IMG/VR virus record: IMGVR_UViG_2609459834_000006
Location: 1-16,505 of that record
Source of the DNA: a virus
Taxonomy: Duplodnaviria; Heunggongvirae; Uroviricota; Caudoviricetes
Direction: 5' to 3' (one strand)
DNA length: 16,505 nucleotides
The position numbers were made by a program, and so were the translations under genes. Every line of letters starts with the position of its first letter. Within the stretch, counting starts at the first letter, position 1. The notes below the pieces were generated by a model that saw only the letters and a program-made list of their open reading frames with translations, searched no databases and was not told where the DNA came from. Shown here piece after piece: positions 3,119 to 6,529 of the stretch.

Positions 3119-3194
3119 GCCGATATAGCTCAGTTGGTAGAGCAGCGCATTCGTAATGCGAAGGTCGTAGGTTCGACTCCTATTATCGGCACCA
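3119..3194 (+). tRNA. thrW: tRNA-Thr (anticodon CGU), 76 nt with encoded CCA
   Basis: GCCGATATAGCTCAGTTGGTAGAGCAGCGCATTCGTAATGCGAAGGTCGTAGGTTCGACTCCTATTATCGGCACCA: acceptor stem GCCGATA/TATCGGC, D-loop AGCTCAGTTGGTAGAGC, anticodon loop with CGT, T-loop GGTTCGACTCC. Confidence 0.95.
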
Positions 3195-3208: not shown

Positions 3209-4372
3209 TTACACATCATTAGTACCTTCCTTATTTTTTGACTGGGACAAATTTGGGACCGATGGGTTCAGGATCGAGTCTATTTGCCGTGCGTGTTCGG
3301 TAAGGTGATTAGGTGCAAGGTGAGCATATCGACGAACCATTTCGATAGACTCCCAGCCTCCCATTTCCTGTAACACTGACAACGGGACTCCGGCTTGAAC
3401 CAGCCAACTTGCCCAGGTGTGTCTCAAGTCGTGAAATCTGAAATCATCAATACCAGCCCGTCTCAGCGCCGCTTTCCAGGCTGTGTTTGCGTCATACCGC
3501 ATCTTCCTTACTGTTGGCGCTTTCGTTCCGTCTGGTTTGGTACAGCTTTCCTTGTACACAAATACCCAACGGTGATGATTCCCGATTTGTTTTTTCAATA
3601 CGCGACATGCAGTATCATTCAGCGCAACGCCAATTGCGCGGTTTGATTTACTCTCTTCCGGGTTTATCCATGCCACCCGGCGCTGCATATCTATTTGTTG
3701 CCATTCAAGGTTGATGATGTTCGAGCGTCTTAAGCCTGTTGCCAGTGCAAATTCAACAACAGACTTTAATGGCTCCGGACATTCATCAATCAGCCTTTGT
3801 GCTTCATGGGGCTCCAGCCAGCGGATCCGTTTATTCTTTGGTTGAGGCACTTTAATAATTGGTGCCTTATCCAGCATTTTCCATTCACGCTCTGCGGCTC
3901 TTAGTAGGGCCTTTATAAATGAAAGATGCGTAGCCTTCGTTGCAACGGACGCTGGTTTTGGCGTGTATTCTGGAACAGGTTTCCCTTTTTTTCTGCATGC
4001 TTCTGCCCTGAGTTTCCAGTTTTCCTCATGACGCCGGTTCGTCATTTTCTGCATTGCTGAATAAATTTTTGATTCAGTGATGTCTCTTAGTTGCATCCCT
4101 GCGAAATGTTGAAGCCAGAATCCGATCCGGCTTTTGTCATCGTCCAGTGATTTCTTATGTGCTTTCTCTTCGAGCCACCTGACACACGCTTCCTCAAACG
4201 TCATATCAGGTATTTCACCAAGTTTGCTGACCCGCCATGCTTCAGCCTTTAGCTTGTCATGGAGCTCTGTCGCCTGCCTTTTGTCCTTTGTTCCAAGAGA
4301 CTGTTTAAATCTTTTACCGTTCGGCAATGTGAAACTGGCGTACCATATTTCACTTCTGCGGAAGAGTGACAT
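3209..4372 (-). CDS. int: Phage integrase, tyrosine recombinase (P22 Int-like), 387 aa
   Basis: [46 protein letters not shown]... with C-terminal catalytic region [10 protein letters not shown]...VRRYAHL (R..H..R..Y). It sits immediately 3' of the tRNA, a classic attL arrangement. Confidence 0.93.
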
Positions 4373-4599: not shown

Positions 4600-4897
4600 G
4601 GTTACCTCTGCTTTTTGAACGCATGTCACGTAACTTCTTAATGTGTTCTGCCGTTTCGATCTCTTCTGCTATCCGATCTGCATCAGCTTTATTCACAGGT
4701 TCAAAGTCATGATTAAAGCGGAACATGCTGGCGATACATGTTCTGCCTTTTCGGATGTAGTGAACTTTGTTGTGGGTAGAACGCAGGATTTTGCAGGGAG
4801 TGCCGTGGTGGTCGACGTACCAGGTGTTAGGAAAAATGATTCTGAACATTTTTACACCCCAGTTGGACGATGTTGAAATTTGCTGCTTTGAGGCCAT
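4571..4897 (-). CDS. Hypothetical phage early protein, about 108 aa
   Basis: ORF MASKQQISTSSNWGVKMFRIIFPNTWYVDHHGTPCKILRSTHNKVHYIRKGRTCIASMFRFNHDFEPVNKADADRIAEEIETAEHIKKLRDMR.... Its ATG at 4895-4897 overlaps the stop of the upstream zinc-finger gene (TGATG), with GGGGA upstream. No family recognised. Confidence 0.6.
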   Translation of the reverse strand: MASKQQISTSSNWGVKMFRIIFPNTWYVDHHGTPCKILRSTHNKVHYIRKGRTCIASMFRFNHDFEPVNKADADRIAEEIETAEHIKKLRDMRSKSRGNHGIIQPHTR

Positions 4898-5115
4898 CAC
4901 AGTCCCCATTGTTTGTTCTTAAGTTCGATCTCCTCCTGGCAACTTGCACAAGTCCGACAACCCTGAACAGCTAGGCGTCTTCGCTCATCTATCGGATCGC
5001 CACACTCACAACAATGAGTTGCGGATACAGTCTGGTAGTTCAGACGACGCATTTTTATTGCTGTATTGCGCTGTAATTCTTCGATTTCTGATGCTGAATC
5101 AATGATGTCTGCCAT
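4897..5115 (-). CDS. TraR/DksA-family C4 zinc-finger protein, 72 aa
   Basis: MADIIDSASEIEELQRNTAIKMRRLNYQTVSATHCCECGDPIDERRRLAVQGCRTCASCQEEIELKNKQWGL: CxxC-x15-CxxC with an acidic/coiled N-terminus, typical of phage TraR-like proteins. Confidence 0.8.
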   Translation of the reverse strand: MADIIDSASEIEELQRNTAIKMRRLNYQTVSATHCCECGDPIDERRRLAVQGCRTCASCQEEIELKNKQWGL

Positions 5116-5164
5116 CTTTCATTAATCCCTGAATTGTTGGTTAATACGCTTGAGGGTAAATGCG

Positions 5165-5191
5165 AATAATAAAAAAGGAGCCTGTAGCTCC
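5165..5191 (-). terminator. Candidate rho-independent terminator (minus strand)
   Basis: Minus strand reads GGAGC-TACAG-GCTCC followed by TTTTTTATTATT (plus coordinates: stem 5177-5181/5187-5191, A-run 5165-5176). It lies just downstream of the ORF ending at 5214. Confidence 0.55.
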
Positions 5192-5213
5192 CTGATGATT
5201 TTGCTTTTCATGT

Positions 5214-5495
5214 TCATCGTTCCTTAAAGACGCCGTTCAACATGCCGATCGCCAGGCTTAAATGAGTCGGTGTGAATCCCATCAGCGTTACCGTTTCGCG
5301 GTGCTTCTTTAGTACGCTACGGCAAATGTCATCGACGTTTTTATCCGGAAACTGCTGTCTGGCTTTTTTGATTTCAGAATTAGCCTGACGGGCAATGCTG
5401 CGAAGGGCGTTTTCTTGCTGAGGTGTCACTGAACAAGCCCCATGCCGGCAAGCATAAGCACACAGAATATGAAGCCCGCTGCCAGAAAAATGCAT
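5214..5495 (-). CDS. Hypothetical small phage protein; start uncertain (93 aa from ATG 5495, or 71 aa from GTG 5429)
   Basis: Track ORF MHFSGSGLHILCAYACRHGACSVTPQQENALRSIARQANSEIKKARQQFPDKNVDDICRSVLKKHRETVTLMGFTPTHLSLAIGMLNGVFKER. No SD precedes ATG 5495, and the N-terminal 22 codons overlap an alternative-frame hydrophobic mini-ORF (see findings). Confidence 0.55.
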   Translation of the reverse strand: MHFSGSGLHILCAYACRHGACSVTPQQENALRSIARQANSEIKKARQQFPDKNVDDICRSVLKKHRETVTLMGFTPTHLSLAIGMLNGVFKER

Positions 5496-5505
5496 TCAGT
5501 GGTTG

Positions 5506-5697
5506 TCATACCTGGTCTCTCTCATCTGCTTCTGCTTTCGCCACCATCATTTCCAGCTTTTGTGAAAGGGATGTGGCTAACGTATGAAATTCTTCGTCTG
5601 TTTCTACTGGTATTGGCACAAACCTGACTCCAATTTGAGCAAGGCTATGTGCCATCTCAATACTCGTTCTTAACTCAACAGGAGATGCTTTGTGCAT
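5506..5697 (-). CDS. Hypothetical small phage protein, 63 aa
   Basis: [63 protein letters not shown], with a strong RBS (GGGAGG) 6-8 nt upstream of the ATG at 5697. Confidence 0.75.
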   Translation of the reverse strand: MHKASPVELRTSIEMAHSLAQIGVRFVPIPVETDEEFHTLATSLSQKLEMMVAKAEADERDQV

Positions 5698-5852
5698 ACC
5701 GCCTCCCGTTTATTATTTATCTTCTCAGCCAGCCGCTGTGCTTTCAGTGGATTTCTGATAACAGAAAGGCCGGGAAATACCCAGCCTCGCTTTGTAATGG
5801 AGTAGACGAAAGTGATCGCGCCTACCCGGATATTATCGCGAGGATGCTTCAT
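5670..5852 (-). CDS. Hypothetical small phage protein, about 60 aa, translationally coupled to exo
   Basis: [60 protein letters not shown]. The ATG at 5850-5852 overlaps the exo stop (ATGA). The track's alternative start is at 5858. Confidence 0.65.
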
Positions 5853-6529
5853 CGCCATTGCTCCCCAAATACAAAACCAATTTCAGCCAGTGCCTCGTCC
5901 ATTTTTTCGATGAACTCCGGCACCATCTCGTCAAAATTCGCCATGTACTTTTCATCCCGCTCAACCACGACATAATGCAGGCCTTCACGCTTCATGCGCG
6001 GGTCATAGTTGGCAAAGTACCAGGCATCTTTTCGCGTCACCCACATGCTGTACTGCACCTGGGCCATGTAAGCCGACTTTATGGCCTCGAAACCACCGAG
6101 CCGGAACTTCATGAAATCCCGGGAGGTAAACGGGCATTTCAGCTCAAGGCCATTGCCGTCACTGCATAAACCATCGGGAGAGCAGGCGGTGCGCATACTT
6201 TCGTCGCGATAGATGATCGGGGATTCAATAACATTTACGCCGGAAGTGAACTCAAACAGGGTTCTGGCGTCGTTCTCGTACTGTTTTCCCCAGGCCAGCG
6301 CTTTAGCGTTAACTTCCGGAGCCACACCGGTGCAAACCTCGGCAAGCAGGGTGTGGAAGTAGGACATTTTCATGTCAGGCCACTTCTTTCCTGATCGGGG
6401 CTTTGCTATCACGTTGTGAACTTCTGAAGCGGTGATGACGCCGAGCCGTAATTTGTGCCATGCATCATCCCCCTGTTCGACAGCTCTCACGTCGATCCCG
6501 GTACGCTGCAGTATAATGTCCGGTGTCAT
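5849..6529 (-). CDS. exo: Lambda-type exonuclease (Red alpha), 226 aa
   Basis: [65 protein letters not shown]... is near-identical to lambda Exo as recalled; 4-nt overlap with bet. Confidence 0.95.

What the first reader, a model, noticed from the sequence alone, without database searches (positions are those of the whole stretch)
5426..5509. Hidden 27-codon hydrophobic mini-ORF overlapping the annotated 93-aa ORF
In an alternative frame, an ATG at 5507-5509 overlaps the stop of the upstream 63-aa gene (ATGA) and encodes MTTTECIFLAAGFIFCVLMLAGMGLVQ, a single predicted transmembrane helix. Its TGA in turn overlaps a GTG (5427-5429) that would start a 71-aa version of the downstream protein (VTPQQENALRSIARQ...). 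The 93-aa ORF called by length has no Shine-Dalgarno sequence and an odd Cys/His-rich N-terminus. The chained stop-start overlaps suggest the true organisation is a small membrane peptide followed by a 71-aa protein. Small membrane peptides in the early-left operon of lambdoid phages include cell-division and host-physiology modulators.
Basis: seen in the sequence. Interest (0 to 1): 0.45.

Follow-up and report, generated by a model that had tools for sequence, protein, structure and literature searches.

The report
Unannotated 27-codon hydrophobic phage gene
Between two known early genes of a lambda-like prophage lies a 27-codon reading frame for a greasy mini-protein. It varies among relatives the way real genes do. 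The 93-residue protein drawn over it is really 71 residues long, so published "orf61" knock-outs hit two genes at once.

Summary
On the minus strand, ATG 5509-5507 overlaps the orf63 stop (ATGA). It opens a 27-codon ORF whose TGA (5428-5426) overlaps GTG 5429-5427.

The window is the exo-xis region of a lambdoid prophage at thrW, 97% identical to phage lambda.

The 71-aa start is firmly supported:
- RefSeq already annotates it (WP_000188870.1).
- Homologues at 28-46% identity start there.
- Phage SfI swaps its upstream gene there.
- 82% of relatives have ATG at that position.

The 93-aa form is a longest-ORF artefact, although the exo-xis literature uses it.

For the mini-ORF, over 225 distinct sequence contexts:
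- 81% of nucleotide diversity is synonymous in its frame (null 26%), against 11% and 9% in the other two frames. This matches the 71-aa gene (79%).
- It is intact in 220 of 225.
- Its ATG always overlaps an upstream stop, whichever gene lies upstream (three orf63 C-terminal variants or a Dam methylase). The Dam junction supplies a strong GGGAGG ribosome site.

It is the most hydrophobic of 183 small ORFs in the window.

Translation and membrane location are untested. The family is confined to Escherichia. The peptide already sits in databases as "hypothetical protein". I rate this a probable real small gene of modest novelty, useful for reinterpreting orf61 genetics.

The parts
5506..5697 (-). 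orf63 (63 aa, DUF1382). It is the upstream gene, and its TGA stop (5508-5506) overlaps the mini-ORF ATG.
   Evidence: PF07131, E=7.7e-31. It is 93.7-95.2% identical at protein level to lambda orf63, depending on the lambda record.
5516..5523 (-). GAGAGAGA, a weak Shine-Dalgarno-like purine run 6-13 nt upstream of the mini-ORF ATG.
   Evidence: -5.6 kcal/mol pairing with the anti-SD, reached at roughly 15% of positions. In the alternative Dam-methylase upstream context the same position holds GGGAGG (-10.3 kcal/mol).
5426..5509 (-). Mini-ORF: 27 codons plus stop, encoding MTTTECIFLAAGFIFCVLMLAGMGLVQ. It has a short polar N-terminus, a hydrophobic segment of about 16-21 residues and a short C-terminal tail.
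   Evidence: Intact in 220 of 225 contexts, with an 81% synonymous share of diversity in this frame. Hydrophobicity rank 1 of 183. Deposited as a hypothetical protein.
5426..5429 (-). GTGA stop/start overlap between the mini-ORF TGA and the orf61 start codon. It reads ATGA in 82% of relatives.
   Evidence: ATG 206, GTG 44, AGG 1.
5214..5429 (-). The true orf61 coding sequence, 71 aa (PHROG 303, unknown function). RefSeq protein WP_000188870.1.
   Evidence: 79% synonymous share of diversity in its own frame.
5430..5495 (-). Spurious 22-codon N-terminal extension (MHFSGSGLHILCAYACRHGACS) of the 93-aa longest-ORF call. It is the mini-ORF read in another frame.
   Evidence: No SD. Not covered by homologues below 95% identity. 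pLDDT 45-59. Only 11% synonymous share of diversity.
5122..5217 (-). 31-aa ORF whose ATG overlaps the orf61 stop (ATGA, 5217-5214). It is the next link in the same chain of coupled small ORFs.
   Evidence: It corresponds in size and position to lambda 'orf2313', reported as translated by ribosome profiling (PMC8614690). It contains a terminator-like hairpin at 5193-5175.

Best explanation
The 84 bases at 5426-5509 (minus strand) are a real protein-coding gene of the early-left (pL) operon of lambda-type prophages. It sits between orf63 and a 71-aa orf61.

Proposed mechanism (inferred):
- Ribosomes finishing orf63, or in other phages a Dam methylase, stop at a TGA that shares its TG with the mini-ORF ATG, and they restart there.
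- Ribosomes finishing the mini-ORF stop at a TGA that shares TG with the A/GTG of orf61, and they restart again.
- The mini-ORF therefore yields a 27-residue acidic, hydrophobic peptide and also passes ribosomes on to orf61, whose own ribosome-binding site is weak.
- The peptide most likely partitions into the inner membrane early in lytic growth and acts on the membrane or on a membrane protein.

Shown here: the anatomy, the conservation of both overlaps in four upstream junctions, coding-type selection in this frame only, and extreme hydrophobicity.

Inferred only: translation, coupling, membrane location and any effect on the host.
For: 1. Frame-specific selection.
- In 225 distinct contexts from viral and metagenome contigs, 15 of 33 variants are synonymous in the mini-ORF frame (null 9.3, p=0.02). 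They carry 81% of nucleotide diversity (null 26%; 0 of 5000 permutations, 0 of 3000).
- The 93-aa frame carries 11% and the third frame 9%.
- The neighbouring real genes score 79% (71-aa gene) and 56% (orf63) in their own frames.
- Of variants seen in at least 3 contexts, 9 of 14 are synonymous (binomial p=0.004).
- Seventeen DNA haplotypes encode one identical peptide, found in 85% of contexts.
- 933W differs from the window at three mini-ORF sites outside the Gly/Asp22 codon, and all three are silent in this frame.

2. Integrity.
- No indel occurs in any homologous copy.
- The ORF is intact in 220 of 225 contexts.

3. Gene-boundary behaviour.
- Homology to the window starts exactly at the mini-ORF ATG in prophages where a 185-aa Dam methylase replaces orf63 (68 viral contigs and E. 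coli B).
- There the ATGA overlap is kept and a strong GGGAGG site precedes it (-10.3 kcal/mol).
- Three divergent orf63 C-termini (..RDQV..RDPA..KELI) also keep the overlap.
- In phage CobraSix the same Dam end plus ATGA leads directly into the orf61 homologue. The mini-ORF ATG therefore occupies a position used by a bona fide gene start.

4. Hydrophobicity rank 1 of 183 small ORFs in the window.

5. The rival 93-aa reading fails.

6. The region has no Rfam match and folds no better than shuffled sequence (z=+1.37).

7. The adjacent 31-aa ORF in the same overlap chain is reported as translated in lambda (PMC8614690).

8. Gene callers have independently called the peptide in some E. coli genomes.
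Against: - There is no direct evidence of translation. The review of the lambda ribosome-profiling data lists two extra small ORFs in this block (7 and 31 aa) but not this one. Reads there would, however, have been credited to the overlapping annotated orf61.
- The Shine-Dalgarno site in the orf63 context is weak.
- The family is confined to Escherichia lambdoid prophages at 90% DNA identity or more. Hits in other genera were lambda contamination. Conservation therefore rests on within-species polymorphism. The diversity statistic is dominated by a few common variants in related sequences.
- An antisense frame that shares wobble positions scores almost as high: 76% share, but only 11 of 33 variants synonymous.
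- One context has ATG>ATA. SfI-type phages carry orf61 without the mini-ORF.
- The common allele has Asp22 in the hydrophobic stretch. My summed Hessa-scale values come to about 0 rather than -2.5 to -2.9 kcal/mol.
- The peptide has no Lys or Arg to fix a membrane topology.
- It has no significant match in Pfam, PHROGs or NCBIfam.
Confidence: 0.65

Rival explanations
1. The mini-ORF is translated only as a relay. Its role would be to carry ribosomes from the upstream stop to the orf61 start and to melt local mRNA structure. The 27-residue product would be a by-product that is degraded and has no function.
For: Both ends are stop/start overlaps in all 225 contexts. orf61 has a weak SD of its own, and in the window a GTG start. 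The mini-ORF looks like an 80-nt insertion between a Dam/orf63 stop and the orf61 ATG, because CobraSix has the two joined directly. The peptide lacks basic residues and belongs to no family.
Against: A pure relay needs only an open frame, not a fixed amino-acid sequence. Yet 85% of contexts encode the identical peptide from 17 DNA haplotypes, and diversity is 81% synonymous. Extreme hydrophobicity (rank 1 of 183) would then be left unexplained.
Confidence: 0.2
2. The stretch is an untranslated 77-nt spacer between orf63 and the 71-aa orf61. The open frame and its overlaps would be accidental or left over from recombination.
For: RefSeq leaves it unannotated. The lambda profiling summary does not list it. 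The SD is weak. A 27-codon open frame alone is not rare: about 0.27 by chance, by my own estimate from (61/64)^27.
Against: The frame-specific synonymous bias. There are no indels in any copy. The exact ATG/stop overlap is kept in four different upstream junctions, one of which has a strong SD. No RNA family or unusual structure would explain conservation at the RNA level.
Confidence: 0.08
3. The 93-aa protein is the real product, as in the Phi24B/933W literature and many phage records, and the 27-codon ORF is a chance alternative frame inside it.
For: It is the longest ORF and is open in all copies. Many GenBank records and PHROG 303 include the 93-aa form.
Against: - Its ATG has only background-level SD pairing.
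- Homologues in Klebsiella, Yersinia, Enterobacter and Vibrio phages start at residue 23.
- SfI has another gene ending 12 nt upstream of that point.
- Hits below 95% identity cover only residues 23-93.
- pLDDT is 45-59 for residues 1-20, and the literature itself excludes residues 1-23 from its model (PMC8614690).
- Only 11% of diversity is synonymous in this frame, and the commonest polymorphism changes residue 20.
- RefSeq uses the 71-aa form.
Confidence: 0.05
4. The selection signal belongs to a gene on the opposite strand (plus-strand ORF 5442..5627, 61 aa), whose third codon positions coincide with those of the mini-ORF.
For: This antisense frame has a 76% synonymous share of diversity (p=0.001), and it is open.
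Against: It fits less well than the mini-ORF frame: 11 against 15 synonymous variants, with a count test of p=0.15. It runs on through the 3' half of orf63 out of phase with that gene. It lies antisense to the pL operon, and no promoter-like site was found upstream on the plus strand within 5000-6000. Open 'shadow' frames opposite real genes are expected.
Confidence: 0.02

Closest known systems
Lambda orf61 / Phi24B vb_24B_7c / 933W ST933Wp10 ('Orf61', exo-xis region)
   Same: It is the same locus. The window is 97% identical to lambda here. The mini-ORF lies wholly inside the coordinates published for orf61 (lambda 30925-31008 within 30839-31024). The 71-aa protein is the conserved core of what the literature calls Orf61.
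   Different: The literature treats Orf61 as 61 aa in lambda and 93 aa in Stx phages (PMC8614690, PMC6213356). The evidence here says the protein is 71 aa. The lambda form is a frameshift product caused by an extra A in an A-run. The first 22 codons of the 93-aa form are a different gene read out of frame. The published lambda delta-orf61 primers delete from mini-ORF codon 13 to about codon 13 of the 71-aa gene (PMC4699033).
Small unannotated ORFs of lambda found by ribosome profiling (Liu et al. 2013, as summarised in PMC8614690: orf2311, 7 aa; orf2313, 31 aa)
   Same: They lie in the same operon and the same conserved block, are of similar size, and are linked into the same chain of stop/start overlaps.
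   Different: Those two are reported as translated, while this one is not listed. It could not have been told apart from the overlapping annotated orf61 without frame resolution (my inference). I could not read the primary paper.
Small hydrophobic bacterial and prophage peptides: type I toxins (TisB, DinQ, ShoB, Ibs, Hok) and small inner-membrane regulators (AcrZ, MgtS, KdpF)
   Same: The size (about 20-50 aa) and a single hydrophobic helix-length segment. This comparison is from my own knowledge. The hydrophobicity was measured.
   Different: There is no sequence similarity to any family. It has no basic flanking residues and a net charge of -2 in the common allele. It is embedded in an operon with translational coupling, not in a separate locus with an antisense RNA, and Rfam finds no RNA there. 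Toxicity and membrane location are untested.
Translationally coupled overlapping genes (ATGA junctions) in phage and bacterial operons
   Same: There are four-base stop/start overlaps at both ends, kept in every copy. The neighbouring junction orf61/31-aa ORF is built the same way.
   Different: Coupling itself has not been measured here.

Membership tests
Protein-coding gene (as opposed to a chance ORF) | Open frame with a start codon, kept intact across relatives | tested here: met
   Intact in 220 of 225 contexts (ATG, 27 codons, stop). No indels. The exceptions are 3 with Q27>stop, 1 with ATG>ATA and 1 with TGA>GGA.
Protein-coding gene (as opposed to a chance ORF) | Purifying selection on the encoded amino acids, specific to this frame | tested here: met
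   The synonymous share of diversity is 0.81 against a null of 0.26. The other two sense frames score 0.11 and 0.09. The count test gives 15 of 33 synonymous, p=0.02. Caveats: the sequences are closely related, and the wobble-sharing antisense frame scores 0.76.
Protein-coding gene (as opposed to a chance ORF) | A means of ribosome recruitment (SD or coupling) | tested here: met
   An ATGA overlap with an upstream stop is present in all contexts. The SD is weak in the orf63 context (-5.6 kcal/mol) and strong in the Dam context (-10.3 kcal/mol).
Protein-coding gene (as opposed to a chance ORF) | Direct evidence of translation (ribosome footprints, start-site peak or peptide) | not testable with these tools
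   The primary lambda profiling paper is not held. The review does not list this ORF. There are no hits in the supplements of PMC5597208, and none are held for 10.1101/520783.
Single-pass small membrane protein | Hydrophobic segment long enough to span the bilayer (about 18-21 residues) with favourable insertion energy | tested here: inconclusive
   Window allele (Gly22): summed Hessa scale -2.5 to -2.9 kcal/mol over 19-21 residues. Common allele (Asp22): +0.3 to -0.7, leaving an uninterrupted stretch of only 16 residues. The scale values are from memory.
Single-pass small membrane protein | Positively charged flank that fixes topology (positive-inside rule) | tested here: not met
   The peptide has no Lys, Arg or His. 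Its only charged residues are Glu5 and, in the common allele, Asp22.
Single-pass small membrane protein | Membrane localisation shown experimentally | not testable with these tools
   This needs fractionation or imaging of a tagged peptide.
Type I toxin-antitoxin toxin | Small hydrophobic peptide | tested here: met
   27 aa, GRAVY 1.6-1.7.
Type I toxin-antitoxin toxin | Separate locus with its own promoter and a cis- or trans-encoded antisense RNA antitoxin | tested here: not met
   It is embedded in the pL operon between overlapping genes. Rfam finds no RNA family on either strand. No promoter-like site flanks it.
Type I toxin-antitoxin toxin | Toxic when over-expressed | not testable with these tools
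   This is an experimental test.
ZapA (the name RefSeq and PGAP give the downstream 71-aa protein) | Match to the ZapA family model above its threshold, or ZapA-like fold | tested here: not met
   Pfam PF05164 scores 16.2 bits against a cut-off of 23.8 (E=0.014). There is no NCBIfam hit. Foldseek against the PDB gives no match with E below 1.7.
Orf61 family (PHROG 303) | Sequence match of the 71-aa protein to the family profile | tested here: met
   phrog_303 E=4.7e-36, aligned to profile positions 23-93.

The most novel reading that the evidence does not exclude
The 27-residue acidic hydrophobic peptide, not 'Orf61', would be responsible for at least part of the pro-lytic phenotypes assigned to orf61 in lambda and Stx phages. 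In lambda PaPa the 71-aa gene is frameshifted, while the mini-ORF is intact and is cut by the published deletion. The peptide would then be a new type of phage-encoded membrane micro-protein, lacking the usual positive flanks, that tunes the timing of induction of Shiga-toxin prophages.
Probability: 0.15. Interest if true: 0.6.

Novelty: new member of a known kind. Interest (0 to 1): 0.4.

Why it matters
The exo-xis block of lambda and Shiga-toxin phages is studied because it shifts the timing and efficiency of prophage induction, and so of toxin release. That work assumes five genes, one being a 61- or 93-aa Orf61.

If the block instead holds a 27-aa hydrophobic peptide plus a 71-aa protein:
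- The structural models of 'Orf61' carry 22 residues that do not belong to it.
- The lambda 'Orf61' is a frameshift chimera.
- The deletion and frameshift mutants used to assign a pro-lytic role to orf61 also destroy the small gene, so their phenotypes need to be re-assigned.

The block matches in 3347 of 5426 complete E. coli genomes, so the annotation gap is widely propagated. It is also a well-controlled example of a small gene masked by a longest-ORF call.

Tried and rejected
- Divergent copies of the mini-ORF. Distant orf63 homologues (P1 variant, ZX5, TL-2011c, Sasha, CobraSix) and distant orf61 homologues (Klebsiella, Yersinia, Vibrio, Enterobacter phages) have no small hydrophobic ORF at the junction. 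The module is confined to Escherichia.
- The genome-contig scan returned mostly lambda DNA contaminating unrelated assemblies.
- The peptide is too short for the search for related loci and the search for homologous proteins.
- A first variant count on 148 haplotypes, dominated by singletons, had no power even for orf63 (dN/dS about 0.9). I replaced it with a frequency-weighted permutation test calibrated on the neighbouring genes. The calibration block at the end was badly filtered and I discarded it.
- RNA-level explanations: no Rfam hit and no unusual folding.
- Family searches for the peptide in Pfam, PHROGs and NCBIfam gave only chance-level hits.
- Literature. The lambda ribosome-profiling paper and the Casjens-Hendrix review are not held. 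A search for the peptide sequence found no paper. The Ribo-RET preprint has no held supplements, and the Sakai small-gene supplements contain no match.
- Long members of the peptide's 90% clusters (428-471 aa) are unrelated clustering artefacts.
- Foldseek of the 93-aa model against the PDB supported neither ZapA nor a homeodomain.
- Programmed frameshifting from the mini-ORF into orf61: I considered it and found no slippery sequence by eye.

Full report
**1. Where we are**

The window is E. coli chromosome: proB, proA and tRNA-Thr thrW (3119-3194). Next comes a lambdoid prophage, whose integrase lies at 3209-4372 on the minus strand.

The finding lies in the exo-xis block of that prophage, read on the minus strand:
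- exo, 5849-6529
- orf60a, 5670-5858 (DUF1317)
- orf63, 5506-5697 (DUF1382)
- the 27-codon ORF, 5426-5509
- the '93-aa ORF', 5214-5495
- a 31-aa ORF, 5122-5217
- a TraR/DksA-type zinc-finger gene, 4897-5115, the equivalent of lambda orf73

The 601 bases around the finding are 97% identical to phage lambda. They match 180 phage records, and they match in 3347 of 5426 complete E. coli genomes.

**2. The observation**

All coordinates, both stop/start overlaps and the peptide sequence are as described.
- The 93-aa ATG has only background-level pairing to the anti-Shine-Dalgarno sequence (-3.8 kcal/mol).
- The mini-ORF ATG has weak pairing (-5.6, GAGAGAGA) and the GTG has -4.7.
- The peptide is the most hydrophobic of all 183 ORFs of 20-45 aa in the six frames of the window.

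**3. The 71-aa protein is the real downstream gene**

- RefSeq annotates exactly this form (216 nt, WP_000188870.1) in a genome identical to the window over the 601 bases compared, GTG start included. It leaves 77 nt upstream unannotated.
- In 82% of related copies the start is ATG, giving a second ATGA overlap.
- Homologues at 28-46% identity in Klebsiella, Yersinia, Enterobacter and Vibrio phages are annotated as 66-74 aa and begin at the residue equivalent to 5429.
- In phage SfI a different gene ends 12 nt upstream of an ATG at that same place. Homology to the window begins a few codons inside the 71-aa gene.
- In the large protein search, every hit below 95% identity covers only residues 23-93.
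- An AlphaFold model of the 93-aa form has mean pLDDT 45 and 59 for residues 1-10 and 11-20, against 71-86 for the helical core. The published models likewise excluded residues 1-23 (PMC8614690).
- The lambda reference has an extra A in an A-run inside this gene. Its annotated 61-aa orf61 is therefore a composite: an upstream ATG inside orf63, the mini-ORF read out of frame, about 29 real codons and a frameshifted tail.

**4. Is the mini-ORF a gene?**

*Distribution.* I found no divergent copies. The element exists only in Escherichia lambdoid prophages at 90% DNA identity or more. The test therefore had to use polymorphism.

*Polymorphism test.* I collected 225 distinct 500-nt contexts from viral and metagenome contigs.
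- Within the 76 interior bases, 33 variants occur. Fifteen are synonymous in the mini-ORF frame, against 9.3 expected when each variant is moved to a random site with the same base (p=0.02).
- Those synonymous variants carry 81% of nucleotide diversity (null 26%; no permutation reached it).
- The 93-aa frame scores 11% and the third frame 9%.
- The same test gives 79% for the 71-aa gene and 56% for orf63 in their own frames, and 9-26% in their wrong frames. So the mini-ORF behaves like its validated neighbours.
- Of the 14 variants seen in three or more contexts, nine are synonymous (p=0.004).
- One peptide sequence, encoded by 17 DNA haplotypes, accounts for 85% of contexts.
- 933W differs from the window at three mini-ORF sites outside the Gly/Asp22 codon, and all three are silent in this frame.
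- No copy has an indel.

*Caveats on this test.* The sequences are related, and a few common variants dominate the statistic. The antisense frame that shares wobble positions scores 76%, although it has fewer synonymous variants and a non-significant count test.

*Junction evidence.*
- In 68 viral contigs and in E. coli B, orf63 is replaced by a 185-aa Dam methylase.
- Homology to the window begins exactly at the mini-ORF ATG.
- The methylase TGA overlaps that ATG, and GGGAGG sits four bases upstream (-10.3 kcal/mol).
- Three different orf63 C-termini also keep the overlap.
- In phage CobraSix the same methylase end and ATGA lead straight into the orf61 homologue. The mini-ORF ATG therefore sits where a genuine gene start sits elsewhere.
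- The next junction downstream, orf61 to the 31-aa ORF, is again ATGA. That 31-aa ORF matches in size and place one said to be translated in lambda.

*Other explanations of the conservation.* There is no Rfam match, and the RNA folds no better than shuffled sequence.

**5. What weighs against**

- I could not obtain any translation data. The review of the lambda profiling lists 7-aa and 31-aa extras in this block but not this ORF. Footprints there would have been attributed to the overlapping annotated orf61, which is my inference.
- One natural copy has ATG>ATA, and SfI-type phages lack the element.
- The common allele has Asp22, so the uninterrupted hydrophobic run is only 16 residues and the summed insertion energy is about zero. 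The window's Gly22 allele is rare.
- There are no basic residues to orient a helix.
- No family matches the peptide.

**6. Known or new?**

- The 71-aa annotation is already standard in RefSeq.
- The peptide is deposited as 'hypothetical protein' in some GenBank E. coli genomes and in UniRef. The exact sequence occurs on about a thousand contigs.
- It was absent from the RefSeq and phage records I sampled.
- It does not appear in the exo-xis literature I could search.
- That literature models Orf61 as 93 aa.
- The lambda delta-orf61 deletion runs from mini-ORF codon 13 to about codon 13 of the 71-aa gene (PMC4699033).

**7. Verdict**

I put about 0.65 on a translated gene with a selected peptide, and about 0.2 more on a translated relay without a functional product.

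Membrane action is a reasonable but untested inference. The finding is a new, uncharacterised member of a familiar class: small hydrophobic ORFs in phage early operons. Its practical consequence is for interpreting existing orf61 genetics. Interest is moderate.

Noticed in passing
window 5369-5374 (A-run inside orf61); lambda NC_001416 about 30,870: Reference lambda and its laboratory derivatives, including DE3, carry A7 where the window and nearly all wild relatives have A6. This frameshifts the 71-aa gene. Lambda's annotated 61-aa orf61 is therefore a composite of out-of-frame pieces, and lambda would make only a 29-aa stump.
   Followed up: yes
window 5099-5217, minus strand: The chain of overlaps continues downstream. 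The orf61 TGA overlaps the ATG of a 31-aa ORF (5122-5217). The TAA of that ORF overlaps the ATG of a 7-aa ORF (MKDGRHH, 5099-5122), which in turn overlaps the orf73 start at 5115. Sizes and positions fit lambda 'orf2313' and 'orf2311', said to be translated (PMC8614690).
   Followed up: partly
window 5175-5193, minus strand: A terminator-like hairpin followed by a T-run (AGGGAGCTACAGGCTCCTT TTTTATTATT) lies inside the 31-aa ORF. It matches the place of the predicted terminator t2 between orf61 and orf73 described in PMC4195576.
   Followed up: partly
L332 880-990 (E. coli B prophage); L007 1190-1215 (phage CobraSix): The Dam methylase ends ...GGGAGGC(T/C)GCATGA in both. In CobraSix this junction leads directly into the orf61 homologue. 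In E. coli prophages it leads into the mini-ORF and then orf61. Both the mini-ORF and orf61 begin ATGACA, so the mini-ORF looks like an 80-nt insertion at a gene junction.
   Followed up: partly
window 5427-5438, minus strand: The GTG start allele of orf61 is almost always linked to GGGG rather than GGGA nine bases upstream (34 of 37 GTG copies; Fisher p=2e-18). This could be simple linkage, or a better ribosome site compensating for a weaker start codon.
   Followed up: partly
window 5214-5429 (71-aa protein): The RefSeq product name 'cell division protein ZapA', used for many copies, rests on a sub-threshold Pfam match (16.2 bits against 23.8). Foldseek against the PDB gives no significant match, so I also could not reproduce the homeodomain resemblance proposed in the literature. 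The 434 record calls the protein a 'putative membrane protein'.
   Followed up: partly
window 5442-5627, plus strand: A 61-aa antisense ORF is open opposite the mini-ORF and the 3' half of orf63. It shares wobble positions with the mini-ORF, which gives it a misleadingly high synonymous score. It is probably a shadow frame.
   Followed up: partly
Genome-contig loci L339-L352: About a dozen assemblies of unrelated bacteria (Shewanella, Pseudomonas, Bradyrhizobium, Paenibacillus, Kitasatospora and others) contain contigs with the lambda-type frameshifted copy of this gene; three of them are about 48 kb long. This is presumably lambda DNA contamination.
   Followed up: no
protein P0113 (NCBI, 66 aa): One E. 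coli genome carries an indel that fuses the mini-ORF in frame to the start of orf61 (MTTTECIFLAAGFIFCVLMLADMGACSVTPQQ...). The gene caller then chose the mini-ORF ATG as the start.
   Followed up: no
window 3119-3194 and 3209-4372: The prophage is integrated next to tRNA-Thr (CGT) thrW, downstream of proBA. No complete E. coli genome covers more than 79% of the window in one piece, so this combination of modules is uncommon.
   Followed up: no
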